Positions 4,648 through 19,557 of a stretch of DNA of 64,000 bases are shown in pieces. Numbering within the stretch: the stretch's first letter is position 1; the number at the start of each line of letters is the position of its first letter. Location: NCBI GenBank assembly GCA_040390345.1, contig JAZJYP010000075.1, positions 1,121 to 65,120 on the forward strand, given 5' to 3'. The position numbers and the translations under genes are program-made. This DNA comes from Pseudomonadota bacterium (GTDB lineage: Bacteria > Pseudomonadota > Gammaproteobacteria > Burkholderiales > Burkholderiaceae_D). The notes under the pieces were generated by a model, which saw only the letters and a list, made by a program, of their open reading frames with translations, did not search any database and had not been told where the DNA came from.

Positions 4648-4717
4648 GGTCCGATCCCACTTTCTTGGTTTAGAATGCGAGCAGAAGGACACCCCTTCTC
4701 CATTCGACGGGAGTTAC

Positions 4718-5074
4718 ATGACCAAGACCGCAACGCGGCCAGCCGACATTTACCTGCGCTTCGTGCGACTTGCCGAAGCGCTGCGCGGATTGCCCTCCTT
4801 GCCGGTTCTCGATCCGCTCGAAGACCGCATTTTGACATTCATCGCCCTCAACGGGCAAGAAAATGAGCGACTTTCGGTACGCGACATGATGGCGCGCGAC
4901 GAATTCGGTTCGCCGGCGACCGTGCACAGCCGCCTCAAATCGATGCGCGAAAAGGGCTGGATCATGCTCACTGACACGGAAGACGCGCGCCGCAAGCAAA
5001 TCACGCTGACCCAGGCTGCCCTGCTGTATTTTGACAAACTATCACAATGCATGCTGCGCGCCGTCAAAGGCTAG
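4718..5074 (+). CDS. winged-helix (MarR-like) DNA-binding protein
   Basis: 118 aa counted from the ATG at 4718. The segment LSVRDMMARDEFGSPATVHSRLKSMREKGWI looks like an HTH/wing. It is divergent from the membrane protein gene. Confidence 0.5.
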   Translation: MTKTATRPADIYLRFVRLAEALRGLPSLPVLDPLEDRILTFIALNGQENERLSVRDMMARDEFGSPATVHSRLKSMREKGWIMLTDTEDARRKQITLTQAALLYFDKLSQCMLRAVKG

Positions 5075-5168
5075 ACTTTGCTGCCTTGCAGCATATTTTT
5101 GATGCAGGTCAATGAAATAACTGCGCCAGATCAATAAGCTTCTTTCGTACCAACAACGAAGGAAGACC

Positions 5169-5777: not shown

Positions 5778-5812
5778 GCACGATTGCGCGCAGGCCCCCA
5801 TGTTGACATTGC

Positions 5813-5886
5813 CGTAGGGTGGGCACATGTGCCCACGCGCGCACCGATGTTGAATGCACGCGTGGGCACGCGTGCCCACCCTACGG
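5813..5886. repeat. REP-like composite palindrome (GTAGGGTGGGCAC family)
   Basis: Sequence is CGTAGGGTGGGCACATGTGCCCACGCG ... CGCGTGGGCACGCGTGCCCACCCTACG. Each arm is itself a palindrome. Related copies occur at 32400 and 13689. Confidence 0.8.
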
Positions 5887-5936
5887 CCGCTTTTGGCCGA
5901 TTGGGGAAAAGCCTGGCGCACTAATGGGCAGCGTCT

Positions 5937-7022
5937 TTATTTGCGGGCGGCGCCGATCAGGTAGTTCTGCATCGGCGCTTCGGCCACCGAGGCCCAGGTG
6001 TTCTGGTCCTGGCGGTAGCGCTTCCAGGGCTCATACACCTTCTTGAACTTGGCGTTCTTGGCCGCTTCTTCTTCCATCACTTCATGCGCGGCCTTGTAGC
6101 AGGCGTCCATGATCTCCTTGGAGAAGCTGCGCAGCTTGGTCCCGCCCTTGAGCAGGCGCGCCAGTGCAATCGGATTCTTGTGGTCGTATTCGGCCTGCAT
6201 CACCACGTGGGCTTCGTAGGCGGCCGCCTCGACGGCGTTCTGGTATTCCTTGGGCAGCTTTTCCCATTCCTTGATGTTGATGTAGAGCGAGAGCTGCGGC
6301 CCCGCTTCCCACCAGCCCGGCGCATAGTAGAACGGCGCGACCTTGTGAAAGCCCAGCTTTTCGTCGTCGTACGGACCCACCCATTCGGCGGCGTCGATCG
6401 TACCCTTTTCCAGCGCGGGATAGATGTCGGCGCCGGCCAGTTGCTGCGGCACCAGGCCCAGGCGGTCCATCACACGCCCGGCGAAGCCGCCGATGCGCAT
6501 CTTGACGCCCTTCAGGTCGGCCACGGTGTGGATCTCGCGGCGGAACCAGCCGCCCATCTGGGTACCGGTGTTACCGGCGGCGAAGTTGATGATGCCGTAA
6601 CCCTTGAAGAACTCACGCATCAGCTCGCGCCCGCCGCCCTGGTCGAACCAGGCCGTCTGCTGGCGCGAGGTCAGGCCAAAGGGCACGGCGCAATCGAAGG
6701 CGAAGGTGGGGTCCTTGCCGAAGTAGTAGTAGGACGCGCTGTGGCCGCATTCGACCGTGCCTTCCTTGACCGCATCGAGCACCTGCAGGCCCGGCACGAT
6801 TTCGCCACCGGCGAACACGCGGATGTTGAACTTGCCGCCCGTCAGGCCCGCCACGCGCTTGCTGAACAGTTCAGCCACGCCGTAAATGGTGTCGAGCGAC
6901 TTGGGGAAGCTGCTGGCCAGGCGCCAGTTGATCGTCGGCAGCGACTGGGCCAGCGCCGGGGCGGCGACCGCGCCTGCCGATGCGCCGACCGCCGCTTTTT
7001 TAAGGAAGGAACGCCGTTCCAT
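5937..7022 (-). CDS. TRAP transporter substrate-binding protein (DctP family), Tat signal
   Basis: The N-terminus MERRSFLKKAAVGASAGAVAAPALA is a twin-arginine signal. The body is DctP-like. No dctQ/dctM genes are adjacent. Confidence 0.8.
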   Translation of the reverse strand: MERRSFLKKAAVGASAGAVAAPALAQSLPTINWRLASSFPKSLDTIYGVAELFSKRVAGLTGGKFNIRVFAGGEIVPGLQVLDAVKEGTVECGHSASYYYFGKDPTFAFDCAVPFGLTSRQQTAWFDQGGGRELMREFFKGYGIINFAAGNTGTQMGGWFRREIHTVADLKGVKMRIGGFAGRVMDRLGLVPQQLAGADIYPALEKGTIDAAEWVGPYDDEKLGFHKVAPFYYAPGWWEAGPQLSLYINIKEWEKLPKEYQNAVEAAAYEAHVVMQAEYDHKNPIALARLLKGGTKLRSFSKEIMDACYKAAHEVMEEEAAKNAKFKKVYEPWKRYRQDQNTWASVAEAPMQNYLIGAARK

Positions 7023-7101
7023 AGAGTGTCTCCTGAAGGTTGGGTCTGCGGGATCACAGCGCGCTAAGTGTATTTCCGCAACGGCAAGCTTGCAAGGACA
7101 A

Positions 7102-8454
7102 TCAGCTACCGGCCACCACCATTTTTTCGATCAGGATCGAGCCGGTCTGCTTGTTGCCGCGCGTGAGCACGTCGGCGCCAACACCAACGATTTGCTGGAA
7201 GATGTCCTTCATATTCCCGGCAATCGTGATTTCCTCGACCGGATACTGGATCACGCCGTTCTCGACCCAGTAGCCGGAGGCGCCGCGCGAATAGTCGCCC
7301 GTCACGTAGTTGGTGCCCTGGCCCATCAGTTCGGTGACCAGCAGGCCGCGGTCCATCTTGCGCAGCATGGCGGCAAAGTCGTCGCCCTTCTTCGTCTTGC
7401 TCGACGTCAGCGACAGGTTGTGCGAGCCGCCGGCATTGCCGGTCGTCTTCATGCCCAGCTTGCGCGCCGAGTAGGACGAGAGGAAGTAGCCCTGCAGCAC
7501 GCCATTCTTGACGACCTCGCGGCGCACCGTGCGCACGCCTTCTTCGTCAAACGGCGCCGAGCCGACACCACCGACCACGTGCGGATCTTCCAGCACCTGG
7601 ATGTGGGACGGGAAGATGGACTTGCCGAGCGAGTCGAGCAGGAAGGTCGACTTGCGGTACAGCGCGCCGCCCGAGGTGGCCTGCACAAAAGCGCCGAGCA
7701 GGCCGGCCGCCAAGGGCGCCTCGAACAGCACCGGGCAGGTGCGCGTATCGAGCTTGCGCGCGTTCAGGCGTGCCAGCGCGCGCTCGGCGGCGTAGCGGCC
7801 TACCGCTTCGGGATTGGACATGTTCTTCGGGTCGCGCACGCTGGTGTACCAGTCGTCGCGCTGCATTTTGGCGCCCTTGCCGGCGATCGGCGCCACCGAC
7901 AGGGTATGCCGCGAGAAGGGATAGCCACCGACGAAGCCGCGCGAATTGGCCGCCACGAAGTGCGACTGCTGCACATGCACGCTGGCGCCTTCGCTGTTGG
8001 TAATGCGCGGGTCGACGTCGAAGGCGGCGCTTTCGGCGCGCTGGGCCAGGGCCACGGCCTGCTCGGTCGAGATCATCCAGGGATAGCACAGCTTCAGGTC
8101 GCGCGGGTTCATTTCCAGCATGTCGGCGTCGGCCAGGCCGGCGCAGTCGTCTTCGGCCGTGAAGCGGGCGATGTTGTAGGCCGCGTCAACGGTGGCGCGC
8201 AGGGCGGCCGGCGAAAAGTCGGAGGTCGAGGCATTGCCGCGCTTCTGGCCGATATAGACCGTCACGCCCATGCCCTTGTCCTTGTTTTGCTCGATCGTCT
8301 CGATCTTGCCGCGCCGGACCGACACCGACAGCCCGCTGCCTTCGCTGATTTCGACGGCGGCATCGGTGCCGCCCGCCTCGCGCGCATAGGCCAAAACATC
8401 GCGCGTGAGGGCCTTCAGCTGGTCCTGGGTGTGGATAAAGACGGTGTCGTTCAT
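7102..8454 (-). CDS. pmbA: metalloprotease PmbA (TldE)
   Basis: 450 aa with a typical PmbA/TldD-family sequence over its full length. It shows the conserved divergent pairing with yjgA. Confidence 0.9.
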   Translation of the reverse strand: MNDTVFIHTQDQLKALTRDVLAYAREAGGTDAAVEISEGSGLSVSVRRGKIETIEQNKDKGMGVTVYIGQKRGNASTSDFSPAALRATVDAAYNIARFTAEDDCAGLADADMLEMNPRDLKLCYPWMISTEQAVALAQRAESAAFDVDPRITNSEGASVHVQQSHFVAANSRGFVGGYPFSRHTLSVAPIAGKGAKMQRDDWYTSVRDPKNMSNPEAVGRYAAERALARLNARKLDTRTCPVLFEAPLAAGLLGAFVQATSGGALYRKSTFLLDSLGKSIFPSHIQVLEDPHVVGGVGSAPFDEEGVRTVRREVVKNGVLQGYFLSSYSARKLGMKTTGNAGGSHNLSLTSSKTKKGDDFAAMLRKMDRGLLVTELMGQGTNYVTGDYSRGASGYWVENGVIQYPVEEITIAGNMKDIFQQIVGVGADVLTRGNKQTGSILIEKMVVAGS

Positions 8455-8550
8455 GGGGTGCTTTTCTTCGGCTGTCCGTTAAAACAGGTATGATAGCAGT
8501 CGTTTACCGTTTTCACCGCCCGGCTGTGCGCCCGGTGGCCCCCTCCTATC

Positions 8551-9156
8551 ATGCCAAATCCAAATCGCGGTGCCTGCGGGTTCCAGTCCTCCGAGTTCGA
8601 GCAGGAATACGAACGCCCCTCCAAATCTGAGCTCAAGCGCCAGATGAACGAGCTGCAAAAACTGGGCGAAGAACTGGTCGCCCAGCCACGCGACCGCGTC
8701 AAGCGCGTGCCCATGCCCGAAGACGTGCGCGAAGCCATCCTGATGTGCCAGACCATCACCAACCACGAAGGCCGGCGCCGCCAGATGCAATTCGTGGGCA
8801 AGAAGATGCGCACCCTCGACGAAGCGGAAATCGCCGCCATCCAGCGCACCATCGACAGCTGGAAGGGCATGTCCAAGGCCGACACGGCCGCCATGCACGC
8901 GCTCGAGCGCCGCCGCGACAAGCTGCTGGCCGACGACAAGGCCTTGACGGTGCTGCTGGAAGAGAACCCGGAGCTGGACGTGCAGCAGCTGCGCACCCTG
9001 ATCCGCAATGCGCGCAAGGAACAGCTTGAATCCAAGCCGCCGAAAGCCTACCGCGAGATTTTCCAGATCCTCAAGCAGGTCGCTGCCAAGACCGCGCCTG
9101 AGCCACTCGATGGCGAAGACGGACTGCTGGACGACGATGAACCAGAAGACGAATGA
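8551..9156 (+). CDS. yjgA: ribosome-associated protein YjgA (DUF615)
   Basis: The segment SKSELKRQMNELQKLGEELV, the charged helical body and the acidic tail are YjgA-like. It lies divergent from pmbA, as in many proteobacteria. Confidence 0.8.
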   Translation: MPNPNRGACGFQSSEFEQEYERPSKSELKRQMNELQKLGEELVAQPRDRVKRVPMPEDVREAILMCQTITNHEGRRRQMQFVGKKMRTLDEAEIAAIQRTIDSWKGMSKADTAAMHALERRRDKLLADDKALTVLLEENPELDVQQLRTLIRNARKEQLESKPPKAYREIFQILKQVAAKTAPEPLDGEDGLLDDDEPEDE

Positions 9157-9724
9157 CACGGCCCTGATCGGGCTCGTCTCGATCTCCGACCGCGCCAGCG
9201 GCGGCGTCTATGAAGACAAGGGCATCCCGGCCCTGCAGGAGTGGCTCGATGCGGCCATCACCTCGCCCTTTCGCACCATCACCTTGCTGATCCCGGACGA
9301 ACGCGCCGCCATCGAAGCGGCGCTCATCGAACTCGTTGACGTGGAAGGCTGCGACCTGGTCCTGACAACTGGCGGCACCGGCCCTGCGCGGCGCGACGTG
9401 ACGCCGGAAGCGACGCTCGCCATCGGCACTAAGGAAATGCCCGGCTTCGGCGAGCAAATGCGCCAGATCAGCCTGGCCTTCGTGCCGACGGCCATCCTGT
9501 CGCGCCAGGTGGCGGTGATCCGCGAGAGGCCGGGCCACGCCGCGCTGGTATTGAACTTGCCCGGCCAGCCGAGGTCGATCAAGGAAACGCTCGAAGGCCT
9601 GCCCAATGTGCCGGGCATCTTCGCTGCCGTTCCCTACTGCATCGACCTGATCGGCGGCCCGTATATCGAAACCAATCCGGACCTGTGCAAGGCTTTCCGC
9701 CCCAAGTCCGCGATCAAAAAGTGA
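9137..9724 (+). CDS. mog: molybdopterin adenylyltransferase (Mog/MoaB family)
   Basis: ATG at 9137. It contains ISDRASGGVYEDKG ... LVLTTGGTGPARRDVTPEA, the MoCF biosynthesis domain signature. The start overlaps the yjgA 3' end by 20 nt. Confidence 0.8.
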   Translation: MNQKTNDTALIGLVSISDRASGGVYEDKGIPALQEWLDAAITSPFRTITLLIPDERAAIEAALIELVDVEGCDLVLTTGGTGPARRDVTPEATLAIGTKEMPGFGEQMRQISLAFVPTAILSRQVAVIRERPGHAALVLNLPGQPRSIKETLEGLPNVPGIFAAVPYCIDLIGGPYIETNPDLCKAFRPKSAIKK

Positions 9725-9729
9725 GCACC

Positions 9730-10398
9730 ATGAGCCAACTGCTGGAAAACATCGAAATCGAGACGGGCGCCAATCCCACGGTCGCCATCATCTGGATGCA
9801 CGGCCTGGGCGCGGACGGCAACGACTTCGTCCCGCTGGTCAAGGAACTGGACTTGCGCGGTTTGCCCGCAATCCGCTTCGTGTTCCCGCATGCCGGGACG
9901 ATGCCCGTGACGATCAACGGCGGCTACGTGATGCGCGCCTGGTATGACATTCTCGGCACCGACCTCGTACGCCGCGAAGATGAAACGGGGCTGCGCAAGT
10001 CGCAAGCCCAGGTCGAAGCGCTGATCGCGCGCGAAAAGGCGCGCGGCATTCCGGCTTCGCGCATCATCCTGGCCGGCTTCTCGCAGGGCTGCGCGATGAC
10101 CTTGCAAACCGGCTTGCGCCATCCGGAAAAGCTGGCCGGCCTGATGTGCCTGTCCGGTTATGTACCGTTGTCGGCCAAGCTCGCCACCGAGCGCAGCGCG
10201 GCCAGCCTGTCCACGCCGATCTTCATGGTCCATGGCCGCGGCGACGGCGTCATTCCGATCCAGCGCGCCGAAGCCTCGCGCGACCTGCTCGTCTCGATGG
10301 GCTACCAGGTCGAATGGCACGAATACATGATGCAGCACTCCTTGTGCCAGGAAGAAGTCGACCACATTGGCAAGTGGCTCAAACACGTTTTAGCGTGA
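9730..10398 (+). CDS. carboxylesterase/phospholipase-family alpha/beta hydrolase
   Basis: It has the GFSQGC nucleophile elbow and the WMHGLGADGNDF motif. Length and order of motifs fit the esterase family. Confidence 0.8.
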   Translation: MSQLLENIEIETGANPTVAIIWMHGLGADGNDFVPLVKELDLRGLPAIRFVFPHAGTMPVTINGGYVMRAWYDILGTDLVRREDETGLRKSQAQVEALIAREKARGIPASRIILAGFSQGCAMTLQTGLRHPEKLAGLMCLSGYVPLSAKLATERSAASLSTPIFMVHGRGDGVIPIQRAEASRDLLVSMGYQVEWHEYMMQHSLCQEEVDHIGKWLKHVLA

Positions 10399-10413
10399 TC
10401 GAAAGGAGCCGCC

Positions 10414-10614
10414 ATGGCTAAGAAGGAAGAAGAGCTGGACGAAGAAACGCTGGCCCTGATCAACTGGTGCATCGAGGTCGAGAAGCTGTTCATCGCCGCC
10501 GGCGCCACCCAGAAGGAAGCGCAGGAACAGATCGAAGACCACGTCGAGTGGTTCACCGACCTGTTCTACGATGGCTTGTCGCCGGAAGAAGCGGCCAAGG
10601 AAGCGCTGGCCTGA
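10414..10614 (+). CDS. small acidic hypothetical protein
   Basis: 66-aa ORF with GGAG upstream of the ATG. I recognise no family. Confidence 0.4.
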   Translation: MAKKEEELDEETLALINWCIEVEKLFIAAGATQKEAQEQIEDHVEWFTDLFYDGLSPEEAAKEALA

Positions 10615-10615
10615 A

Positions 10616-11140
10616 TTACGGCACGGCCGTCTGGGCCGCGTTCATCACCATCGCCAGCAGGGTGTAGTAGCCGCTGATGCCCATCAGGTCGACCACGCCC
10701 TTTTCGCCGAAGCGCGCCAGCGCCGCCGTGTAGCTGGAGTCGGAGACGCGCTTTGTTTCGTGCAGTTCAATGCAAAAATCATAGACCGCCGCCTCGTCGT
10801 CCGTCAGCATGGGCGGGCGCTGGCGGCGCCGGATCGCTTCGATCGCGATATCGGCGATGCCGGCCTTGGCCGCGATGGGCGCGTGGATGGCCCATTCAAC
10901 GGGCTGCTTCCAGTGGCTGGCCGTGATCAGGATGGCCAGTTCGGTCAGGTGGGGGCCGATGCTGCTGCGAAAGCGCAGGTATTCGCCCATGCGCTGGGTG
11001 CACGCCAACAGCTCGGGGCTGCGCAACAGCGGTATAAAAGGCCCGTACAGCGCGCCGCGCGGGCCATCGATCACCGCCTGCGCCACCGCGCGTTGCTCGT
11101 CCGTCAACATATCCCAAGCAATCGCTCCCAACCTGTCCAT
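10616..11140 (-). CDS. carboxymuconolactone decarboxylase (CMD/AhpD-like) family protein
   Basis: 174 aa, all-helical, with a layout typical of CMD-family proteins (recognition only). Confidence 0.6.
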   Translation of the reverse strand: MDRLGAIAWDMLTDEQRAVAQAVIDGPRGALYGPFIPLLRSPELLACTQRMGEYLRFRSSIGPHLTELAILITASHWKQPVEWAIHAPIAAKAGIADIAIEAIRRRQRPPMLTDDEAAVYDFCIELHETKRVSDSSYTAALARFGEKGVVDLMGISGYYTLLAMVMNAAQTAVP

Positions 11141-11151
11141 GGCGCTCCCTG

Positions 11152-11625
11152 TCAGATCGGCACCCAGAGCCCCACGCCTCCGTTGCCAGTATGCGGATTG
11201 AAGTCGGCGCCGTAGTGTTCGATGAAGGGCGCTTCAGCCGCATGATAGCCCGAATTGGGCAGCCAGTGGTCCATGATGGCCACCCAGGTGTCGCGGATGG
11301 TCGAGACATGGCCGCTGTGGCGGAACACCGCATAACGGTGGGCCGGCACCGCCAATTGCCTCAGTTCCGGTGGGCAATTGGCGACGTTGTCGACGGCGAC
11401 GGCGCAGTAGTATTCCATGCCTTCCTTGTCGCCCTGCACGACGCCATAGGCATCGAAGCCGCTTTGTCCGGGGATGTGGCCGATATAGGGGGCGAAGCGC
11501 TGCCACATGGCCGGGATCGCCGCGGCGTCGGCCGTGTTGAACGGTCCGCCCAGGCCGGCCAGCAGCAGCGCCGGTTTTTCTTCGATGCGGGGCGGCGCCA
11601 GTTCGGGTTTGGTTTTCGTATCCAT
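11152..11625 (-). CDS. GyrI-like small-molecule-binding domain protein
   Basis: 157 aa. The motifs MWQRF...GVV...YYCAV...VPAHRYAVFRHSG...HWLPNSGY are typical of the effector-binding domain of AraC/Rob-type regulators. Confidence 0.7.
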   Translation of the reverse strand: MDTKTKPELAPPRIEEKPALLLAGLGGPFNTADAAAIPAMWQRFAPYIGHIPGQSGFDAYGVVQGDKEGMEYYCAVAVDNVANCPPELRQLAVPAHRYAVFRHSGHVSTIRDTWVAIMDHWLPNSGYHAAEAPFIEHYGADFNPHTGNGGVGLWVPI

Positions 11626-11645
11626 GATGATTACCTCAATCAGAG

Positions 11646-11759
11646 TCAGGTTGTCGATGTGGCGCTGGGCGCATGCAACGCCGTCGCCACGGTCTCGAGC
11701 GAGATGTCGCCGGCGTAGTGGCTGTTGATATACCAGCGAGCTTTTGCGATGACGGTCAT
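11646..11759 (-). pseudogene. 37-codon remnant of an AraC-type HTH N-terminus
   Basis: My own translation of the minus strand gives MTVIAKARWYINSHYAGDISLETVATALHAPSATSTT then a stop. The start (A..YI..HY...ISLE.VA) resembles AraC-family helix 1-2, and it lies directly upstream of the GyrI-like ORF. Confidence 0.35.
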
Positions 11760-11842
11760 GTTTTTTCCTTGCGTGGGACAGGTGCTACGATGCCTGTCGC
11801 TGGCGCGTCACGCTTGATCGGGATTGCGCAATTGGCGGCGCG

Positions 11843-12136
11843 CTAGGTATGCTTGGCAATATAAAACGTGGCACCGACCAACGCAGTGCCGTAGGTCACC
11901 ATCAGCGTGCTGCACAGAACGAAGAGACGCGAAATTTGCTCTCTCAGTTCCTTTCGCACCTCGCCGCGCACGTCGTGTATGTCGGTGCGCAAGCCTTCAA
12001 TTTCCTTGTGCAAGCCTTCAATGTCCATGTGCAAGCCTTCAATGTCCTTGCGCAAGTTATGAACCTCTAGCTCCACGCGGTCCATTCTCGCGGTCAAATC
12101 ATCTATCCTGTGATGCAAATGCTGTACTTCGGGCAC
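11843..12136 (-). CDS. tail-anchored coiled-coil protein with heptad tandem repeats
   Basis: 97 aa. The repeats DIEGLHMDIEGLHKEIEGL are followed by a C-terminal hydrophobic helix (LFVLCSTLMVTYGTALVGATFYI). Confidence 0.55.
   Translation of the reverse strand: MPEVQHLHHRIDDLTARMDRVELEVHNLRKDIEGLHMDIEGLHKEIEGLRTDIHDVRGEVRKELREQISRLFVLCSTLMVTYGTALVGATFYIAKHT
11988..12055. repeat. 21-bp tandem repeat (about 3.2 copies) inside the coiled-coil ORF
   Basis: The copies read GCAAGCCTTCAATTTCCTTGT / GCAAGCCTTCAATGTCCATGT / GCAAGCCTTCAATGTCCTTGC / GCAAG. The repeat is in frame, 7 codons per unit. Confidence 0.85.
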
Positions 12137-12365
12137 GTTTCGATGCGAGTCAGGCGCGCTTCCATTCCCTTATCATAGACAGCGCGCCTGGCATCGTCAA
12201 ACAGGGGTTCGCGTGAATTTTCGCCTGGCATTTTGGTCTCCTGAGCGTCGTCGTGGACCGGTCAATACTGCACGTAAATATTTGCCCTTCGTTTCACCTG
12301 GATCAAACAAAGCTGCGCGATTCGCCCCTATTGTCATCAATCCGCAATCCGGCCCAAGGACCGTC

Positions 12366-13697
12366 ATGACCCACATCATCCACCGCAACCTGCTGGCCCG
12401 CCCACCGATCGCCGTGAGCGCCCTGGGCATCGAAGTGCGCGACAGCGAAGGCAAGACCTACCTCGACGCCAGTGGCGGCGCGGCCGTCTCTTCGCTCGGC
12501 CATGGTCACCCGGAGGTGCTGGCGGCCATGCATCGCCAGATCGACCGCAACGCCTATGCGCATACGGCCTTCTTCACCACCGAGGTGGCCGAGGAACTGG
12601 CGGCGCGCCTGGCGGCGGGCGCACCGGAGCCGGGCATGGAAGTGTATTTCCTCTCGGGCGGTTCGGAAGCGATGGAGACGGCGCTCAAGCTGGCGCGCCA
12701 GTATTTCGTCGAGAATGGCGAAGCACAGCGCAGCACCTTCATCGCGCGCCGCCAGAGCTTTCACGGCAACACGCTTGGCGCGCTGGCCGTCGGTGGCAAT
12801 GCCTGGCGGCGCCAGCACTTCGCGCCGCTGCTGATCGACGTGGCGCGGATCGCCCCCTGCAATGCGTATCGCGACCGCGGCGCGCAGCAGTCGCTGGACC
12901 AGTACACGGCGTCACTGCTGCAGGAACTGGAAGCGGCCATCCTTGCCTCCGGGCCGGAAAAGGTGATCGGGTTCGTCGCCGAAACCGTGGTCGGCGCCAC
13001 CGGCGGCGCGGTGCCGCCCACGCCCGGCTATTTCCGCGGCGTGCGCGCACTGTGCGACAAATACGGCATCCTGTTCATCGCTGACGAAGTCATGTGCGGC
13101 ATGGGCCGTACCGGCACCATGTATGCCATCGAACAGGACGGCGCCATCCCCGACATCATTACCCTGGGCAAGGGACTGGGCGCCGGCTACCAGCCGATCG
13201 GCGCGGTGCTCGCGCGCGCAGCCATCGTGGCGCCGCTGCGCAGCGGCAGCGGGATGTTCCACCACGGGCATACTTACGTCGGCCATCCGGTGGCGGCGGC
13301 GGCGGCGCTGGCAGTGCAAAAGGTGATTGAACAGGAGAACCTGCTGGGCGCGGTGCAGGCGCGTGGCGAATCGCTGCGCACCATGCTGCGCTCGGCCTTC
13401 GCCGGCCACGAACACGTGGGCGACATCCGCGGGCGCGGCCTGCTGCTGGCGGTGGAACTGGTGCAGGACCGCGACAGCAAGCGCGCGTTCGCGCCGGCGC
13501 GCAAGCTGCACGCGGCCATCAAGGCGCAGGCGATGGTGCGCGGCCTGATGGTCTATCCGATGGGTGGCACCATCGACGGCCTGCATGGCGACCATATCCT
13601 GCTCGCGCCGCCCTTTATCGTCAGCGAGGCGCAGTTGTCGGAGATCGTCTCGCGGCTGATCGATGCTGTGGACGCCGCGATCGCGCTTGGTGGGTGA
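12366..13697 (+). CDS. class III (omega/beta-amino acid) PLP aminotransferase
   Basis: ATG at 12366. The motifs SSLGHGHPEV, FLSGGSEAMETALKLAR, FIADEVMCGMGRTG and HGHTY are class III aminotransferase signatures. Confidence 0.85.
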   Translation: MTHIIHRNLLARPPIAVSALGIEVRDSEGKTYLDASGGAAVSSLGHGHPEVLAAMHRQIDRNAYAHTAFFTTEVAEELAARLAAGAPEPGMEVYFLSGGSEAMETALKLARQYFVENGEAQRSTFIARRQSFHGNTLGALAVGGNAWRRQHFAPLLIDVARIAPCNAYRDRGAQQSLDQYTASLLQELEAAILASGPEKVIGFVAETVVGATGGAVPPTPGYFRGVRALCDKYGILFIADEVMCGMGRTGTMYAIEQDGAIPDIITLGKGLGAGYQPIGAVLARAAIVAPLRSGSGMFHHGHTYVGHPVAAAAALAVQKVIEQENLLGAVQARGESLRTMLRSAFAGHEHVGDIRGRGLLLAVELVQDRDSKRAFAPARKLHAAIKAQAMVRGLMVYPMGGTIDGLHGDHILLAPPFIVSEAQLSEIVSRLIDAVDAAIALGG

Positions 13698-13765
13698 CGC
13701 GCTGCGCGCTGACCCACCCTACGCCACTGCCTGGGTCGCGGGCCAAGGGTGCGCGTCACCCACCA
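13689..13765. repeat. REP-like palindromes (GGTGGGTGACGCGC variant)
   Basis: GGTGGGTGACGCGCTGCGCGCTGACCCACCCTACG is followed by GGGTGCGCGTCACCCACC. It sits between convergent genes. Confidence 0.6.
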
Positions 13766-13772
13766 ACAGGGG

Positions 13773-14612
13773 CTACGCCACCACGCTCTGCTGCTGTTCA
13801 CCCAGGCCGGCGATCCCCAGGCGCAGCTTGTCGCCACGCTTGAGGAAGCGCTGCGGCTTGCGCGCCATGCCCACGCCTGGCGGCGTACCGGTGGCGATGA
13901 TATCGCCCGGCTCGAGCGTCATGAAGCGCGACAGGTAGGCGACGATCTGGGCCACCGTGAAGATCATGGTCTCGGTGCTGCCGGTCTGCATGCGCTTGCC
14001 GTTCACTTCCAGGTACAGGTCGAGCTTCTGCACGTCGAACACTTCGTCGCGCGTGACCAGCCACGGGCCCACCGGGCCGAAGGTGTCGCAGCCCTTGCCC
14101 TTGTCCCACTGCGGTCCGCGTTCGAGCTGGTACTCGCGCTCGGACAAATCGTTGACGACGACATAGCCGGCCACATGGTTCAAGGCCTCCGCTTCGCTGA
14201 CGTATTGGGCGCGCGTGCCGATGACGACACCGAGTTCGACTTCCCAGTCGGTCTTCTTCGAGCCCTGCGGCAGCAGCACGTCGTCGTCCGCGCCGGACAG
14301 GCAACTGACTGCCTTCATGAACACGATGGGCTCGAGCGGTGGCGTGGCACCGATTTCGGCCGCGTGGTCGCTGTAGTTCAAGCCGATGCCGATGAATTTG
14401 CCGACGCGCTTGATTGGCACGCCCATACGTGGATTGCCCTTCACCTTGGGCAGGGTCTTGGGATCGATCTTGGCCAGCTTGCGCAGGGCCTTGTCGGACA
14501 GGTGATGGGCGTCGATATCGTCGATCACGCCGGACAGGTCGCGCAGGCGGCCTTCCTCGTCGAGCATGCCGGGTTTTTCTTTGCCGGGACGGCCGTAGCG
14601 AAGCAGTTTCAT
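13773..14612 (-). CDS. fumarylacetoacetate hydrolase (FAH) family protein
   Basis: 279 aa. The segments GIGLNYSDHA, DWEVELGVVIG and TGTPPGVG are classical FAH-fold motifs. Its start overlaps the MFS stop as ATGA. Confidence 0.85.
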   Translation of the reverse strand: MKLLRYGRPGKEKPGMLDEEGRLRDLSGVIDDIDAHHLSDKALRKLAKIDPKTLPKVKGNPRMGVPIKRVGKFIGIGLNYSDHAAEIGATPPLEPIVFMKAVSCLSGADDDVLLPQGSKKTDWEVELGVVIGTRAQYVSEAEALNHVAGYVVVNDLSEREYQLERGPQWDKGKGCDTFGPVGPWLVTRDEVFDVQKLDLYLEVNGKRMQTGSTETMIFTVAQIVAYLSRFMTLEPGDIIATGTPPGVGMARKPQRFLKRGDKLRLGIAGLGEQQQSVVA

Positions 14613-15880
14613 GGTGGGGCTTTCAAAGCGTGTGCGAATGCGTGACTATACCCGTTACGGGAACGCCGTGCGTAGTCGATCAATCCAGGCAGCTGCAGCG
14701 CCACCAGCACACCGAAGGCAACGCGGTAGGCGTCGGCCGGATAGTGGCCAAGCGCGTCCGGTTTCCATCGCGCGATGACGAGGCCGAAGCAGCATTGCAC
14801 CAGGAAGGCGCCGACGAAAATCAACAGGTTCAGGCAGGTGGCGGCGCGCCCTGTGAGCGTGCGCGGCATGCTTTGCGCGACGATCGCGTATTCGATGCCG
14901 GTGATCGTACCGACCAGCGTAAACAGCACCGACAGCATCTGGTAGCTGGGCGCGTAGTTGACCACGATCGCCGCCTGCACCGCCACGAACAGGCCGATAC
15001 CCATGCCCGCCACGTCGAGCGGCTTGATGCCGCGCCGTCCTGCCCATTCCGTCACCATGCCCACCGCAATGGCGCCGAAGATCACCGAGGCCATGCCCAG
15101 GTACAGCAGGTAGGCTACGGCGGCGTCGGAGAAATGCGCCACGTCGGATAGCCAGCGCCCGATCCACAGGCCCTGGATGCCGAAAAAGACCGTGTGCGGC
15201 ACCAGCACCAGCGAGATCGTGGTGCGGAAGGCGCGGTCGCGGTAGACGTCGAGGATCGATTGCACCGACGGCGGCGCGCCGCCCGGTGCGGCGCCGCGCG
15301 GCGTGAGCAGCCAGATCAAGAGGCCCACGCAGGCGGTCAGGGCGCCGAGCAGCGTGAACAGGCCGCGCCAGTCGGTGTAGTGCAGCGCCAGGCGCACCGG
15401 CAGCGTGGCCGAGGCAGCGCCCAGGCCGCCGACGGCGATCAGGTAGCCATGCACGGAAGGCAGCCTGGATGGCGCGATCCAGGTCGAGATGGCCTTCACC
15501 GCCGACATGAAACAGCCGCCCAGGCCGAAGCCGATCACGAAGCGCGCCGCCACCAGCTGGTAGAAGCTGTGGCCGTGGGCGAACAGCAGCGCGCCGGCAC
15601 CGGCAACGAGCAGCAGCACCAGCTGCACCTTGCGCGGCCCATGGCGGTCGAGCGCGATCCCGACTGGCAACTGCACCAGCGCGAAGGAAAAGAAGAAGGC
15701 GCTGGTGAGCATGCCGAGCTGGCCCGCGTCGAGGGCCATGCTGTGCACCAGTTGCGGCGCCAGTACCGCGTTCACGGTGCGCAGCAGTGCCGACAGGTAG
15801 TGTCCCAGCGCGAACGGCAGGAACACGTAGAAGAACACGGCAAGGCCGGACAGCCTTGCCCCTTCCTGCTGGCCGTCCAT
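14609..15880 (-). CDS. MFS transporter
   Basis: ATG at 15880, 4 nt after the kamA-like stop. About 12 hydrophobic segments. The upstream extension in the ORF track is a shadow of the kamA-like 3' end. Confidence 0.8.
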   Translation of the reverse strand: MDGQQEGARLSGLAVFFYVFLPFALGHYLSALLRTVNAVLAPQLVHSMALDAGQLGMLTSAFFFSFALVQLPVGIALDRHGPRKVQLVLLLVAGAGALLFAHGHSFYQLVAARFVIGFGLGGCFMSAVKAISTWIAPSRLPSVHGYLIAVGGLGAASATLPVRLALHYTDWRGLFTLLGALTACVGLLIWLLTPRGAAPGGAPPSVQSILDVYRDRAFRTTISLVLVPHTVFFGIQGLWIGRWLSDVAHFSDAAVAYLLYLGMASVIFGAIAVGMVTEWAGRRGIKPLDVAGMGIGLFVAVQAAIVVNYAPSYQMLSVLFTLVGTITGIEYAIVAQSMPRTLTGRAATCLNLLIFVGAFLVQCCFGLVIARWKPDALGHYPADAYRVAFGVLVALQLPGLIDYARRSRNGYSHAFAHALKAPP

Positions 15881-15884
15881 GGCA

Positions 15885-17231
15885 TCAGGCGGCTTGGCTG
15901 GCGACCAGTGGGATGACCTTGCGCGCGGCCCGGTCCTCTTCCTCGAAGAAGAATTTGCTCTGGCCGAAGGCCGGCACCAGGTGGTCCAGCCAGGTGGCGG
16001 CCGGGTCGTATTTGGCGAAGAAGGGCTTGCGCACCCAGTCCGGATTGCGCGCTTGCAGGAACTGCAGGGCGAACAGCTTTTCACCATTGATCGTCACCAC
16101 GCCGTCGACGACGACCTTGCCGGGGAAGGCGCTCATCGACGGTCCGCGCACGGTGCGCGACAGGCCCGACACCATCTGGTAGGCGGACTGGAAGATCTCG
16201 TGCGCGCGCGCCAGCGGCAGCGCGAAGTAGTCGGATGGCCCGGTGTCGCGCTCGACGAACATGTAGTAGGGGATGGCGCCCAGGCGCACGCCGGTGGTCC
16301 ACAGTTCGGCCCAGCTGGCCGGGTCTTCGTTGATGTGGCGGATCAGCGGGCCCTGCATGCGCAGGGTGGCACCGGTTTCGACGATGCGCTTGACGGCCGC
16401 CTGGGCCACGTCCTGGCGCAGCTCCACCGCGTGGCTGTAGTGGCCCATGATGGCCAGGTTCTTGCCGCTCTTGACGACGCGCTCGAACAGGCGCAGCAGG
16501 TCGCCGCTGTCGCGGTCGGAGACGAAGCGCTGCGGCCAGTAGGCCACCGACTTGGTGCCGATGCGGATGTTCTGGATGTGGGCCAGCGACGGGTCGAGCA
16601 GCGGTTCGAGCACGTCGGTGAGCTGGCGCGTGTTCATGATCAGGGGGTCGCCGCCGGTGATGAGGACGTCGGTGACGTCGCGGTGGTTCTGCAGGTAAGC
16701 CACCAGTTCGCCCGTCTCGCGCGCGTCGAACTTCATGTCGTCCATGCCGGCAAACTGCGGCCAGCGGAAGCAGAAGGTGCAATAGGCGTGGCAGGTCTGG
16801 CCGGCGCTGGGAAAAAACAGCACCGTCTCCTTGTATTTGTGCTGCAGGCCGCGCAGCGGCGCGTCGTTTACGCGCGGGACGTTGTGGGTCATCTGGCCGG
16901 CCGGGTGCGGATTCATGCGCAGTCGGATCGCATGCACCAGGCGCGCGGTGGCGGCATCATCTTTCTTGTACAGCAGCAGCTCGCGCAGCTGCGCATATTC
17001 CGTGGCCGGCAGCATGTCGCGGTGCGGAAAGGTGAGGCGGTAGATCGGGTCGTCCGGAATATTGTTCCAGTCGATCAGCTGGTCCATCACATAGGCATTG
17101 GTGCGAAAAGGCAAGACGTGCGAGACCACCTGCACGGCTTCCTGCAGGTCGGCGGGCATCCATTGCCATTGCCTGGCAAGGGCGATGGTCTGGCGCGTGT
17201 AGGGCTTGAATTTGGCGAGTTCGGCGATCAC
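15885..17231 (-). CDS. KamA-family radical SAM aminomutase (lysine 2,3-aminomutase-like)
   Basis: It has the CHAYCTFC (CxxxCxxC) cluster motif, ITGGDPL, and a KamA-type N-terminal region (LPFRTNAYVMDQLIDW...DPIYRLTFP). I prefer the GTG at 17231, preceded by AGGAG, over the GTG at 17282. Confidence 0.85.
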   Translation of the reverse strand: MIAELAKFKPYTRQTIALARQWQWMPADLQEAVQVVSHVLPFRTNAYVMDQLIDWNNIPDDPIYRLTFPHRDMLPATEYAQLRELLLYKKDDAATARLVHAIRLRMNPHPAGQMTHNVPRVNDAPLRGLQHKYKETVLFFPSAGQTCHAYCTFCFRWPQFAGMDDMKFDARETGELVAYLQNHRDVTDVLITGGDPLIMNTRQLTDVLEPLLDPSLAHIQNIRIGTKSVAYWPQRFVSDRDSGDLLRLFERVVKSGKNLAIMGHYSHAVELRQDVAQAAVKRIVETGATLRMQGPLIRHINEDPASWAELWTTGVRLGAIPYYMFVERDTGPSDYFALPLARAHEIFQSAYQMVSGLSRTVRGPSMSAFPGKVVVDGVVTINGEKLFALQFLQARNPDWVRKPFFAKYDPAATWLDHLVPAFGQSKFFFEEEDRAARKVIPLVASQAA

Positions 17232-17446: not shown

Positions 17447-17893
17447 ATGAAACTGCTCCTCGCCCTCGCCTTCGCTGGCGCCGCCCCGGCCCTGCTGGCG
17501 GCCGAACCGACCGAAAAAGACGCCATCGCGATGGTGGAAAAAGGGGTGGCCTTGGTCAAGGCCAGCGGCAAGGCCGCGCTCGCCAAGAAGATCAGCGACA
17601 AGGATCCCGACTACGTCAACGGCGCGCTCTACCTCGACATGCGCGACCTGTACACCGGCATCGTACTGGCCCACCCGATCAACCACTCGATCGTCGGCAA
17701 GGACCTCACCGACGTGCCCGACGCCAGCGGCAAGAAGTACCGGCGCGAGATCATCGAACTGGCCCAGAAGAAGGGCCGTGGCTGGGTCGACTACCAGTAC
17801 AAGCATCCGACCAGCGGCAAGATCGAACCGAAGACGACCTATATCCAGCGTGTGGACGACGTCGTGCTCGAAGCGGGCATCTACAAAAAATGA
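17447..17893 (+). CDS. secreted stand-alone single-Cache (sCache_2-like) domain protein
   Basis: It has a signal peptide ([18 protein letters not shown]). The segments [26 protein letters not shown]...DASGKKY...[23 protein letters not shown] follow the sCache_2 pattern. No TM or output domain is present. Confidence 0.75.
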
Positions 17894-19557
17894 GCCCTCT
17901 GCTCCAGCGCTTGCGCATCGGACCCAAGCTGCTGCTCGCCCCCGGCCTGGCCCTGTGCCTGCTGCTCATGCTCTCGGGCGCGGCCGGCTATGGCATGCTG
18001 CGCCAGAACGCCACGCTCGACAATATGGTCGAGGTGCGCGCGGCGCGCCTGAAGGCCGCCGCCGAGATCGCCGGCGACGCCAAGTTCGCGCATGCCCAGG
18101 TCTACCAGCTGCTGGCCTGGGTCAATGGCAGCTTCGCCAAGGCCAGGCTCGACACCCTGGTCAAGGACATCAATGGCCGCCACGCCAGCCTGGCCGCCCA
18201 GCTCAATCAATTGGCCCAGGTGGCCGCCAGCGACGAACGCGCCCTCGTCGAGGCCTCCGCCACCGCACTGGCCGGCTACCACAAGCGCATCGGCGAGACC
18301 ATCGACATGGCGGCCGTGGACTGGTCGATCGCCACCAATGCGATGGTGCGCGCCGAACAGCAGTTCGAGGTGCTGAACTCCCAGCTGGCCGCCCTGTCGC
18401 AACTGGAAACGGCATTGAACAGCCGCGCCCACGCGCGCGCGCAGGCCGAATTCCATGACCTGGCCATCACCATGGGCGCACTGGTGCTGCTGTCGATTGC
18501 CCTGGCGCTGCTGGCCACCTTCCTGGTGCGGCGCGCCATGCTGGCCGATATCCGCGGCATCGCCGATACTGTCGCCGAACTGGCCGCGGGCCACCTGGTG
18601 GCCGGCCGGGCCCACCAGGGACGCGACGAAATCGCCGACACCGCGCGCGCCCTCGACCGCACCATTGCCACGCTCTCGAACACACTGCGCAGCGTGCTCG
18701 CGTCGGTGCACTCGATCGACTGCGCCTCGCAGGAAATTGCCAGCGGCAACCTGGACCTGTCGCAGCGCACCGAGCTGCAGGCGGCCTCGCTCGAACAAAC
18801 CGCCAGCAACGTCGACGCCCTCACCGAGGCCGTGCGCGACAACGCCGCCACGGCGCGGCGCGCCAACGAACAGGCGGCCAACGCGGCGCGCCTGGCCGAC
18901 AGCGGCGGCCAGGCCGTGCAGCGCGCGGTGGCCAGCATGGCCACGATCAAGGCCAGTTCGCACAAGGTCGTCGAGATCATCGGCGTGATCGACGCGATCG
19001 CCTTCCAGACCAATATCCTGGCGCTGAACGCCGCCGTCGAGGCGGCGCGCGCCGGCGACCAGGGCCGCGGCTTTGCCGTCGTCGCCGCCGAAGTACGCAC
19101 CCTGGCGCAGCGCTCGGCGGCGGCCGCGCGCGAGATCAAGACCCTGATCGTCGCCTCCTCGTCGACCATCGACGCGGGCAGCGCCGCGGTCGACCAGGCC
19201 GGCAGCAGCATGGACGACATCGTCGCCTCGGTGCGCGACGTCAGCCTGCTGATCGAACGCATCAGCGTGGCCAGTTCGGAACAGGCCGAGGGCATCGCCG
19301 GCGTCAACCGCGCGGTGAGCCAGATGGACGATATGACACAGCAGAACGCCGCCCTGGTGGAGCAGGCAGCGGCGGCCGCAGCCAGCCTGCACGACCAGAC
19401 CGAGATGCTGGCGCGCGCCGTGGCGGTGTTTCGCATTGACGGCATGCCCGAACGGCGCGCGCCGGGCAGCCCGATGCGCCTGGGCGAACCGGCGCGCGCG
19501 CAAGCGCGAACCGGCCAGGCCGAAGCGCCACGGCAGCGGGCTACAGCGCAAGCTTGA
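17890..19557 (+). CDS. methyl-accepting chemotaxis protein (4HB-type periplasmic domain, HAMP, MA domain)
   Basis: The highly conserved signalling hairpin ([44 protein letters not shown]) is present. The protein has two TM segments. Its start overlaps the Cache ORF stop as ATGA. Confidence 0.9.

What the first reader, a model, noticed from the sequence alone, without database searches (positions are those of the whole stretch)
12366..17231. KamA-like radical-SAM aminomutase / MFS / FAH-hydrolase operon convergent with a class III aminotransferase
Three tightly packed minus-strand genes form this cluster: a KamA-family aminomutase with CHAYCTFC, an MFS transporter after a 4-nt gap, and an FAH-family hydrolase with an ATGA overlap. 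They face a class III (omega/beta-amino acid) aminotransferase across a REP element. None of the partners of known KamA systems is present. Those partners are EF-P modification epmA/epmB, the lysine-fermentation genes kamDE/kdd/kce, and ablB for N-acetyl-beta-lysine. One chemically coherent but unproven reading is a beta-amino acid route. The aminomutase would make a beta-amino acid, the class III transaminase would convert it to a beta-keto acid, and the FAH-type enzyme would cleave or decarboxylate that beta-keto or beta-diketo acid. The MFS protein would import or export the substrate.
Basis: inference. Interest (0 to 1): 0.6.

Follow-up and report, generated by a model that had tools for sequence, protein, structure and literature searches.

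The report
Non-lysine KamA-type aminomutase with transporter
The cluster is real, but only the radical-SAM aminomutase and its transporter travel together (the aminotransferase is a looser partner, the FAH hydrolase a bystander), and the aminomutase belongs to a widespread uncharacterised clade that has lost both lysine-binding residues, so its substrate is probably not lysine.

Summary
All four genes, their spacing and the repeat element are as described. The organism is a Massilia/Telluria-like betaproteobacterium.

The KamA homolog (15885-17231, minus strand) folds like lysine 2,3-aminomutase. It keeps the CxxxCxxC cluster, the carboxylate-binding Arg and the PLP Lys. It scores far below the cut-offs of every named KamA family. 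The two acidic residues that hold lysine's side chain are replaced by Arg345 and Ser. It belongs to a separate, uncharacterised clade: 299 representatives at E <= 1e-30 and at least 594 matches in species genomes.

Co-occurrence splits the proposed pathway:
- **MFS transporter:** its ortholog was found only in KamA-positive genomes and always next to KamA (11 of 11).
- **Class III aminotransferase:** present in all 16 KamA-positive genomes of 101 sampled, and directly downstream and co-directional in about seven genomes of the sister clade. It also occurs in 7 genomes without KamA.
- **FAH hydrolase:** present in 65 of 101 genomes regardless of KamA, split from KamA-MFS by cytochrome oxidase genes in close relatives, and retained where KamA-MFS was not found.

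Best reading: a beta-amino-acid module of aminomutase plus transporter, with the omega-transaminase as the probable next step. The substrate is unknown and possibly acidic. Other first-stage notes of this scan flagged similar KamA-family genes in other genomes. Some genome counts include the unpublished genome G081.

The parts
15885..17231 (-). KamA-family radical SAM/PLP aminomutase homolog of an uncharacterised clade (448 aa from the GTG at 17231; the ORF extends to 17282)
   Evidence: Carries CxxxCxxC at C164/C168/C171, R173 (equivalent to LAM R134) and K389 (PLP Lys); residue numbers follow the 465-aa ORF. TIGR00238 scores 123.8 bits against a cut-off of 199.2, and all equivalogs are far below cut-off. 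AF2 model pLDDT 90.8. Top fold match is 2A5H, probability 1.0, TM 0.59/0.67. The LAM D293 position is R345, and the second acidic position is S382/S384. AGGAG ribosome-binding site before the GTG.
14609..15880 (-). MFS transporter (423 aa), 4 nt downstream of KamA; the conserved partner
   Evidence: MFS_1 112 bits. Only weak similarity to anion-type MFS families (ACS/OPA). The ortholog (57-78% identity) was found in 11 of 101 family genomes, all KamA-positive and adjacent to KamA. A 53-55% homolog lies in KamA clusters of Caballeronia and Pantoea.
13773..14612 (-). FAH-family protein (279 aa), start overlapping the MFS stop; probable 2,4-diketo-3-deoxy-acid hydrolase type and a probable bystander
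   Evidence: FAA_hydrolase 238 bits. NF053535 scores 456.1 bits against a cut-off of 500. Best solved relative is 8GSR, L-2,4-diketo-3-deoxyrhamnonate hydrolase, E 3e-99. Found in 65 of 101 genomes independent of KamA.
13689..13764 (.). REP-like dispersed palindromic element between the convergent genes
   Evidence: Perfect 14-bp inverted arms. 52 copies in the genome against 6 for the control pattern.
12366..13697 (+). Class III (omega-type) aminotransferase, 443 aa, convergent with the operon; recurrent but dispensable partner of KamA
   Evidence: Aminotran_3 and PRK07483, both over cut-off. Nearest solved relatives are omega/GABA/amine:pyruvate transaminases. Adjacent and co-directional with KamA in L026-L030, L072, L074, L076 and L079. 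Present in 16 of 16 KamA-positive genomes and 7 of 85 others.
17447..19557 (+). Divergent neighbour: stand-alone sCache_2 protein (17447-17893) plus a 4HB chemoreceptor (17890-19557). Context only; syntenic with KamA across the Oxalobacteraceae loci
   Evidence: Pfam sCache_2, MCPsignal and 4HB_MCP_1. The MCP is divergent from KamA in nearly all Oxalobacteraceae loci and is retained next to FAH in G022, where no KamA was found.

Best explanation
The first gene encodes a PLP- and radical-SAM-dependent amino acid 2,3-aminomutase of a distinct, uncharacterised KamA clade. It keeps the catalytic apparatus: the [4Fe-4S]/SAM motif, the PLP lysine and the alpha-carboxylate arginine. Its side-chain pocket is rebuilt, with Arg and Ser where the lysine enzymes have two acidic residues. 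It should therefore interconvert a non-lysine, possibly anionic, alpha-amino acid and its beta-isomer.

The selected functional unit is the aminomutase plus the MFS transporter translated just after it, which moves the substrate or product across the membrane. The class III omega-transaminase is the most likely next enzyme, converting the beta-amino acid to a beta-keto acid. It is an ancestral neighbour that also works without KamA. I lean slightly towards uptake and catabolism over synthesis and export.

The FAH protein is co-transcribed here by position only and is not part of the pathway.

Shown: family placement, residue pattern, fold and co-occurrence. Inferred: the reaction, the direction and the substrate class.
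For: Fold and catalytic motifs:
- pLDDT 90.8, with 2A5H the clear top fold hit over about 420 columns.
- CxxxCxxC, R173 and K389 are conserved in 141-152 of 158 clade sequences.

Not a lysine enzyme:
- An ungapped alignment from PYY to F puts R345 on LAM D293 and on the E. coli EpmB Asp.
- The residue 7 before the PLP Lys is Ser, where LAM has Asp and EpmB has Glu.
- R345 is kept in 130 and D346 in 126 of 158 clade sequences (the ERDTG motif).
- The two-Asp rule, and the Lys/Asn swap in glutamate 2,3-aminomutase, are documented in PMC3965090.

Co-occurrence:
- KamA-MFS: 11 of 11 MFS orthologs are adjacent to KamA, and none was found in KamA-negative genomes. The same MFS type sits in KamA clusters of two other genera.
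- Aminotransferase: adjacent and co-directional (gap about 80 nt) in about seven genomes of five genera, where it is the only close homolog in the genome.
- On the KamA tree, the MFS-type clade and the aminotransferase-adjacent clade are sisters.

Other support:
- In KamA-less genomes the aminotransferase ortholog sits beside RpiR regulators, an amino-acid binding protein and an M20 amidohydrolase, a catabolic omega/beta-amine context.
- Ferredoxin partners fit a working radical SAM enzyme: a 7Fe ferredoxin gene after KamA (L073) and a 2Fe-2S fusion (P0238).
Against: - No member of the clade has a known activity. Five literature searches found none.
- Substrate class is inferred from two positions in a sequence alignment. 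Model coordinates could not be inspected.
- Relatives at 51-55% identity that keep ERDTG sit beside lysine/ornithine-type N-hydroxylases, in a fusion (P0125) and in the Rhodococcus pDK3 cluster. That could point to a basic substrate.
- In Pseudomonas the neighbour is a branched-chain aminotransferase, which could point to a hydrophobic substrate.
- The aminotransferase occurs without KamA in 7 genomes, and KamA has no aminotransferase within 8 kb in Janthinobacterium and several Paraburkholderia loci.
- Co-occurrence counts come from related genomes and are not independent.
- MFS specificity and direction are unresolved.
Confidence: 0.55

Rival explanations
1. MFS imports an amino acid, KamA makes the beta-amino acid, the class III transaminase makes a beta-keto acid, and the FAH enzyme cleaves or decarboxylates it.
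For: In this genome FAH is translationally coupled to MFS by an ATGA overlap. KamA-MFS-FAH with a convergent aminotransferase recurs in many Oxalobacteraceae loci. FAH enzymes do cleave beta-diketo acids; the best relative is 8GSR.
Against: FAH homologs at 52-85% identity are in 65 of 101 genomes, most without KamA, and none was found in 3 KamA-positive genomes. Unrelated respiratory genes separate FAH from MFS in G072, and similar gaps are present in G013 and G077. In G022, MCP and FAH are adjacent and no KamA or MFS ortholog was found. Outside Oxalobacteraceae no FAH gene accompanies KamA.
Confidence: 0.1
2. A biosynthesis and export module. KamA makes a beta-amino acid from a common amino acid as an osmolyte, signal or building block, and the MFS protein exports it. 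The aminotransferase and FAH are unrelated neighbours.
For: Sister clades place the same enzyme in gene-cluster-like contexts: N-oxygenase-type flavoproteins, AurF-like and TauD enzymes, ATP-grasp ligases, and a hydrazine-synthetase-like gene set. An MFS gene follows in several of these clusters. Many more distant members stand alone.
Against: The Massilia-type locus has no tailoring or ligase genes. The LysR regulators and the omega-transaminase adjacency in the nearest sister clade look catabolic. The aminotransferase is retained near KamA on both sides of the split in the tree.
Confidence: 0.22
3. It is an ordinary lysine 2,3-aminomutase, as many database records name it, making beta-lysine.
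For: Sources name close homologs 'lysine 2,3-aminomutase'. An N-terminal lysine/ornithine N-monooxygenase fusion exists in P0125.
Against: TIGR03820 scores 104.9 against 525.4 bits and EpmB 90 against 369.3. Both lysine-binding acidic residues are replaced. No beta-lysine-using partner was found in the genome. EF-P modification here is probably by EarP.
Confidence: 0.08

Closest known systems
Lysine 2,3-aminomutase KamA/AblA (Clostridium subterminale, PDB 2A5H; TIGR03820)
   Same: Same overall fold along the whole chain. Shares the CxxxCxxC radical SAM motif, the GGDP motif, the carboxylate-binding Arg and the PLP Lys.
   Different: About 20% identity. HMM score 104.9 against a cut-off of 525.4. 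Asp293 is replaced by Arg345 and Asp330 by Ser. It has an extra N-terminal region and C-terminal tail. No kamDE/kdd/kce or ablB context.
EF-P beta-lysylation enzyme EpmB (E. coli YjeK; TIGR03821)
   Same: KamA-family core and the same motifs.
   Different: Scores 90 against 369.3 bits. EpmB keeps Asp and Glu at the two side-chain positions, whereas this protein has Arg and Ser. No EpmA in the genome, and EarP is present instead. The gene is not next to efp.
Glutamate 2,3-aminomutase (Clostridioides difficile type; TIGR04368)
   Same: The same logic of specificity change: the two lysine-binding Asp become a basic residue and a small polar residue, Lys/Asn there (PMC3965090) and Arg/Ser here. 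This is the basis for guessing an anionic substrate.
   Different: Scores 84.2 bits against a cut-off of 650, so it is not a member. The residues differ. That family is described mainly from anaerobes (own knowledge). No activity is known for this clade.
Omega-/beta-alanine:pyruvate-type class III transaminases (for example PDB 3I4J, 5KR6, 6IO1, 3HMU)
   Same: The aminotransferase aligns end to end with these at E 1e-67 to 1e-86 and meets the PRK07483 equivalog cut-off.
   Different: The substrate of PRK07483-type enzymes is not defined. Pairing with a KamA-type enzyme has not been described in the papers searched.
L-2,4-diketo-3-deoxyrhamnonate hydrolase LRA6 (PDB 8GSR; NF053535)
   Same: The FAH protein aligns over its full length, E 3e-99.
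   Different: Scores 456.1 against a cut-off of 500. No rhamnose or fucose pathway genes were seen among the adjacent ORFs read. Its distribution is independent of KamA.

Membership tests
KamA family, PLP-dependent radical SAM aminomutases (TIGR00238) | CxxxCxxC [4Fe-4S]/SAM motif | tested here: met
   CHAYCTFC with C164/C168/C171, conserved in 150-152 of 158 clade sequences.
KamA family, PLP-dependent radical SAM aminomutases (TIGR00238) | PLP-binding lysine near the C-terminal end of the barrel | tested here: met
   K389 in SAFPGK aligns with the EpmB PLP Lys and is present in 141 of 158 sequences.
KamA family, PLP-dependent radical SAM aminomutases (TIGR00238) | Arg that binds the substrate alpha-carboxylate (LAM Arg134) | tested here: met
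   R173 aligns with 2A5H R134 and is present in 148 of 158 sequences. The role of Arg134 is from own knowledge of the 2A5H structure.
KamA family, PLP-dependent radical SAM aminomutases (TIGR00238) | LAM-like three-dimensional fold | tested here: met
   AF2 pLDDT 90.8. Foldseek top hit is 2A5H, E 3e-19, TM 0.59/0.67; the next hit has E 2e-6.
KamA family, PLP-dependent radical SAM aminomutases (TIGR00238) | Score over the curated family cut-off | tested here: not met
   123.8 bits against 199.2. It is a divergent branch of the family.
Lysine 2,3-aminomutase / EpmB (TIGR03820, TIGR03821, TIGR03822) | Score over the equivalog cut-off | tested here: not met
   104.9 against 525.4, 90 against 369.3, and 107 against 396.25.
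Lysine 2,3-aminomutase / EpmB (TIGR03820, TIGR03821, TIGR03822) | Two acidic residues that bind the lysine epsilon-ammonium group | tested here: not met
   R345 and S382/S384 occupy these positions. The rule is documented in PMC3965090.
Lysine 2,3-aminomutase / EpmB (TIGR03820, TIGR03821, TIGR03822) | Pathway partners (EpmA/EF-P, KamDE-Kdd-Kce, AblB) | tested here: not met
   No EpmA or AblB over cut-off. EarP is present. BKACE paralogs exist only on other contigs. KamDE was not searched.
Glutamate 2,3-aminomutase (TIGR04368) | Score over the cut-off and a Lys/Asn pair at the side-chain positions | tested here: not met
   84.2 against 650 bits. The residues are Arg and Ser, analogous in charge but not the family's own.
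Arginine 2,3-aminomutase (TIGR04468) | Score over the cut-off | tested here: not met
   87.6 against 600 bits.
Class III aminotransferase (PF00202; NCBIfam PRK07483) | Score over the curated cut-offs, full-length match | tested here: met
   314.7 against 30.5 bits, and 706.7 against 485 bits over residues 1-440.
2,4-didehydro-3-deoxy-L-rhamnonate hydrolase (NF053535), FAH superfamily | Score over the equivalog cut-off | tested here: not met
   456.1 against 500 bits. The Pfam FAA_hydrolase domain is met at 238 bits.
Major facilitator superfamily (PF07690) | Score over the cut-off | tested here: met
   112.1 against 33.4 bits. No subfamily cut-off was reached.

The most novel reading that the evidence does not exclude
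This clade is a second, independently evolved acidic-amino-acid 2,3-aminomutase, for example glutamate to beta-glutamate or 2-aminoadipate to 3-aminoadipate. It would work in aerobic soil bacteria. It would feed an omega-transaminase route to a beta-keto acid in Burkholderiales, and supply beta-amino acid units to N-oxygenase and hydrazine-type gene clusters in Pseudomonas, Burkholderia and actinomycetes.
Probability: 0.22. Interest if true: 0.68.

Novelty: new variant of a known kind. Interest (0 to 1): 0.5.

Why it matters
Only four substrate specificities are established for KamA-type aminomutases: lysine (KamA and EpmB), glutamate and arginine. This clade is large: 299 representatives of 50%-identity clusters at E <= 1e-30, and at least 594 matches in species-representative genomes. 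It spans Proteobacteria, Actinobacteria, Chloroflexota and Acidobacteriota. Databases routinely name it 'lysine 2,3-aminomutase' although it lacks both lysine-binding residues.

Defining its substrate would add a new radical SAM reaction, or a new route to a beta-amino acid. It would correct a widespread misannotation. It would also explain the enzyme's recurrent pairing with omega-transaminases and with N-oxygenase or N-N-bond gene clusters.

For this window, the practical outcome is that the unit to study is KamA plus MFS, with the aminotransferase, rather than the four-gene pathway.

Tried and rejected
- **EpmB role:** rejected. No EpmA, EarP is present, and the scores are far below cut-off.
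- **Beta-alanine supply for CoA through an alanine 2,3-aminomutase:** unlikely to be needed, because PanD is present.
- **FAH as a pathway member:** rejected on distribution and synteny.
- **PF13454 flavoprotein as a hidden partner here:** it follows KamA in many Burkholderia, Comamonadaceae and Pantoea loci. A 50%-identical homolog exists on contig C61, but it lies after an RND efflux pump. In the family sample only 2 of 16 KamA-positive genomes have it, so no link is claimed.
- **Locus search with the 37-sequence alignment:** failed because no stretch was conserved enough. The 9-sequence alignment worked.
- **Literature:** five full-text searches found no characterised member of the clade. 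The LAM structure paper and the glutamate aminomutase paper are not held, so residue numbers for 2A5H beyond the alignment rest on my own knowledge plus PMC3965090.
- **Promoter and terminator scan:** uninformative.
- **MFS specificity:** only weak matches to anion-type MFS families, so it is not used as evidence.
- **Formal tree with characterised LAM, glutamate and arginine aminomutases:** not built, because reference sequences other than E. coli EpmB and a Rhizobium homolog could not be obtained by reference. Placement rests on HMM scores and motif comparison.

Full report
**Observation**

The window is about 65% G+C, and close homologs of the KamA protein come from Massilia, Telluria and Pseudoduganella.
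- Class III aminotransferase, 12366-13697 (+).
- FAH-family protein, 13773-14612 (-).
- MFS transporter, 14609-15880 (-).
- KamA-like radical SAM protein, 15885-17231 (-).

The KamA start is best placed at the GTG at 17231, which follows an AGGAG. The longer ORF's first 20 residues are disordered in the model, and homologs align only from about residue 23. The 4-nt KamA-MFS gap and the 4-nt MFS/FAH overlap follow from these coordinates. No terminator-like site beyond chance separates the three genes.

The convergent spacer holds a perfect 14-bp inverted pair. With one mismatch allowed, the 14-mer occurs 52 times in the genome against 6 for the control.

**The aminomutase homolog**

Pfam sees only a weak Radical_SAM match. 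NCBIfam places the protein nearest the KamA family but below every cut-off:

| Family | Score (bits) | Cut-off (bits) |
|---|---|---|
| TIGR00238, KamA family | 123.8 | 199.2 |
| TIGR03822, AblA-like | 107 | 396 |
| TIGR03820, lysine 2,3-aminomutase | 104.9 | 525 |
| TIGR03821, EpmB | 90 | 369 |
| TIGR04468, arginine 2,3-aminomutase | 87.6 | 600 |
| TIGR04368, glutamate 2,3-aminomutase | 84.2 | 650 |

It is the only KamA-family gene in the assembly. An AlphaFold2 model built on 37 relatives is confident (pLDDT 90.8). Its only strong structural match is lysine 2,3-aminomutase 2A5H, over about 420 columns.

Conserved across 158 clade sequences:
- The CxxxCxxC cysteines.
- R173, aligned to 2A5H Arg134.
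- K389, aligned to the PLP lysine of EpmB.

The two side-chain positions differ from the lysine enzymes:
- An ungapped alignment of the PYY...F segment puts R345 on 2A5H Asp293 and on the corresponding Asp of E. coli EpmB.
- The residue seven before the PLP lysine is Asp330 in LAM (own knowledge) and Glu in EpmB. Here it is Ser.
- The ERDTG motif is kept in about 130 of 158 sequences. These include members from Pseudomonas, Rhodococcus and the monooxygenase fusion.

The SFLD paper states that the two aspartates bind lysine, and that glutamate 2,3-aminomutases carry Lys and Asn there (PMC3965090). By the same logic this clade is not a lysine enzyme. A basic residue at the first position suggests an anionic side chain, but that is inference only.

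**Size and spread of the clade**

An exhaustive search of 50%-identity representatives found 299 proteins at E <= 1e-30. A scan of species-representative genomes found at least 594 relatives. They come from Oxalobacteraceae, Paraburkholderia, Burkholderia, Comamonadaceae, Pseudomonas, Pantoea, Bradyrhizobium, Chloroflexota and Acidobacteriota. Plasmid records add Mycetohabitans, Streptomyces, Rhodococcus and Nocardia. In a phylum-wide sample, 14 of 401 genomes carry it.

**Which neighbours are real partners**

I compared 101 genomes of the same GTDB family. One of them, G081, is unpublished, so the counts below include it.

| Gene | Genomes with an ortholog | Relation to KamA |
|---|---|---|
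| KamA | 16, plus one fragment | - |
| MFS, 57-78% identity | 11 | All KamA-positive, always adjacent |
| Aminotransferase, 55-77% identity | 23 | All 16 KamA-positive genomes, plus 7 without KamA |
| FAH, 52-85% identity | 65 | Independent; not found in 3 KamA-positive genomes, elsewhere in the genome in 2 |

- In five genera (G016, G017, G037, G045, G056), and in further loci from the species scan, KamA is followed directly and co-directionally by the aminotransferase. There is no MFS or FAH between them, and that aminotransferase is the only close homolog in those genomes.
- In G072 about 6 kb encoding cytochrome oxidase subunits, a cytochrome c and an AI-2E transporter lies between MFS and FAH. 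G013 and G077 have a gap of similar size.
- In G022, of the same genus as the KamA-positive G077, the chemoreceptor gene sits directly beside FAH and the aminotransferase lies 3.4 kb further on. No KamA or MFS ortholog was found in that genome.
- KamA-MFS therefore behaves as a two-gene cassette.
- A FastTree of KamA sequences (support values not examined) puts the MFS-type Oxalobacteraceae clade as sister to a clade holding the aminotransferase-adjacent loci and the LysR/ferredoxin loci. This fits an ancestral KamA-aminotransferase linkage.
- These genomes are related, so the counts are not independent trials.

**Contexts in more distant members**

- **Paraburkholderia type:** a divergent LysR regulator, then KamA, then a 7Fe ferredoxin.
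- **Burkholderia, Comamonadaceae, Pantoea and Bradyrhizobium:** KamA, sometimes a metallo-beta-lactamase-fold protein, a roughly 650-aa FAD/NAD(P)-binding protein (PF13454), then an MFS. In Caballeronia and Pantoea that MFS is 53-55% identical to the window's.
- **Pseudomonas:** cupin, RidA, GST, KamA, a branched-chain aminotransferase (PRK07544, over cut-off), a TauD-like dioxygenase, an AurF-like diiron N-oxygenase and a metallo-beta-lactamase-fold protein.
- **Rhodococcus pDK3:** KamA, cupin, a luciferase-like monooxygenase, a SidA/IucD/PvdA-family monooxygenase, a class I tRNA-ligase-like protein and a saccharopine-dehydrogenase-like protein, with ATP-grasp, carrier-protein and AMP-binding genes nearby. 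From own knowledge this resembles hydrazine-synthetase gene sets.
- **Metagenomic fusion P0125:** a lysine/ornithine N-monooxygenase domain fused to KamA, followed by a cupin and an ATP-grasp ligase.
- **Members at 50-55% identity in other Proteobacteria and a Bacteroidota-like contig:** stand alone. This agrees with other first-stage notes of this scan.

Recurrent pairing with aminotransferases of two different folds, and with amine-oxidising enzymes, fits an enzyme that makes or uses an unusual amine, that is, a beta-amino acid. It does not fix the substrate. The N-hydroxylase contexts could favour a basic substrate and the branched-chain aminotransferase a hydrophobic one. Both are evidence against my anionic guess.

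**The other three proteins**

- **Aminotransferase:** meets the PRK07483 equivalog and aligns best with omega, GABA and amine:pyruvate transaminases. In KamA-less genomes its ortholog lies next to RpiR regulators, an amino-acid binding protein or an M20 amidohydrolase. It looks like a general omega/beta-amine transaminase recruited to different amine sources.
- **FAH protein:** closest to L-2,4-diketo-3-deoxyrhamnonate hydrolase (8GSR, E 3e-99) and just under that equivalog's cut-off.
- **MFS:** gives only weak matches to anion-type subfamilies.

**Genome-level checks**

EarP is present and EpmA is absent, so EF-P beta-lysylation is not the role. AblB is absent. PanD is present, so an alternative beta-alanine source is not needed. 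Three BKACE paralogs exist elsewhere in the genome.

**Verdict**

The aminomutase is a new-specificity branch of a known family, and its transporter is a true partner. The omega-transaminase is a probable but dispensable partner, and the FAH enzyme is a bystander.

The most likely mechanism is interconversion of a non-lysine alpha-amino acid and its beta-isomer, coupled to transport, with transamination of the beta-amino acid to a beta-keto acid. Direction and substrate remain open.

Noticed in passing
window 17447-19557: A stand-alone sCache_2 protein overlaps the start of a 4HB-type chemoreceptor. The chemoreceptor gene (the Cache ORF was not checked in other genomes) is divergent from KamA in almost all Oxalobacteraceae loci, and stays next to FAH in G022, where no KamA-MFS was found. 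Whether it senses the pathway's substrate is unknown.
   Followed up: partly
L091-L102, L109 (Pseudomonas), about 3500-12900 in locus coordinates: A conserved co-directional cluster: two proteins without a Pfam family (one with weak ATP-grasp similarity), RidA, cupin, GST, KamA-like, branched-chain aminotransferase, TauD-like dioxygenase, AurF-like N-oxygenase and a metallo-beta-lactamase-fold protein. It looks like an uncharacterised natural-product cluster.
   Followed up: partly
L144 (Rhodococcus sp. DK17 plasmid pDK3) 2945-17206; also R. jostii RHA1 plasmid record NC_008269.1: The KamA-like gene heads a set with a cupin, a luciferase-like monooxygenase, a SidA/IucD/PvdA monooxygenase, a tRNA-ligase-like protein and a saccharopine-dehydrogenase-like protein, flanked by ATP-grasp, carrier-protein, AMP-binding, MFS and GNAT genes. 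This resembles hydrazine (N-N bond) forming machinery.
   Followed up: no
P0125 / L117 774-3422; P0238: Natural fusions of the KamA-like domain: one to an N-terminal lysine/ornithine N-monooxygenase domain (882 aa), another to an N-terminal 2Fe-2S ferredoxin domain.
   Followed up: partly
G000 contig C61 (L147) 1066-9394: A 616-aa PF13454 FAD/NAD(P)-binding protein is 50% identical to the one that follows KamA in other genera. Here it lies directly after an RND efflux pump (AcrB-type plus membrane-fusion protein) and a two-component system.
   Followed up: partly
L122 (G240) and L124 (G160): KamA-clade genes in small (1.6-1.7 Mb), high-GC genomes each carry one in-frame TGA. This could be a sequencing error, a pseudogene or recoding.
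   Followed up: no
L088 (Candidatus Pantoea astica) 3244-14414: Two KamA-like paralogs in one co-directional cluster, together with a 2-hydroxyacid dehydrogenase, an ATP-grasp ligase, the PF13454 flavoprotein, an MFS and a GST.
   Followed up: no
P0127 (alignment A2): One clade representative has lost the CxxxCxxC cysteines (CHLYRTGSWR). It may be a pseudo-enzyme or a sequencing artefact.
   Followed up: no
window 11152-11625 (-): A GyrI-like/Cass2 small-molecule-binding domain protein lies upstream of the aminotransferase, next to ORFs with no Pfam family, in a stretch of lower G+C (58%).
   Followed up: no
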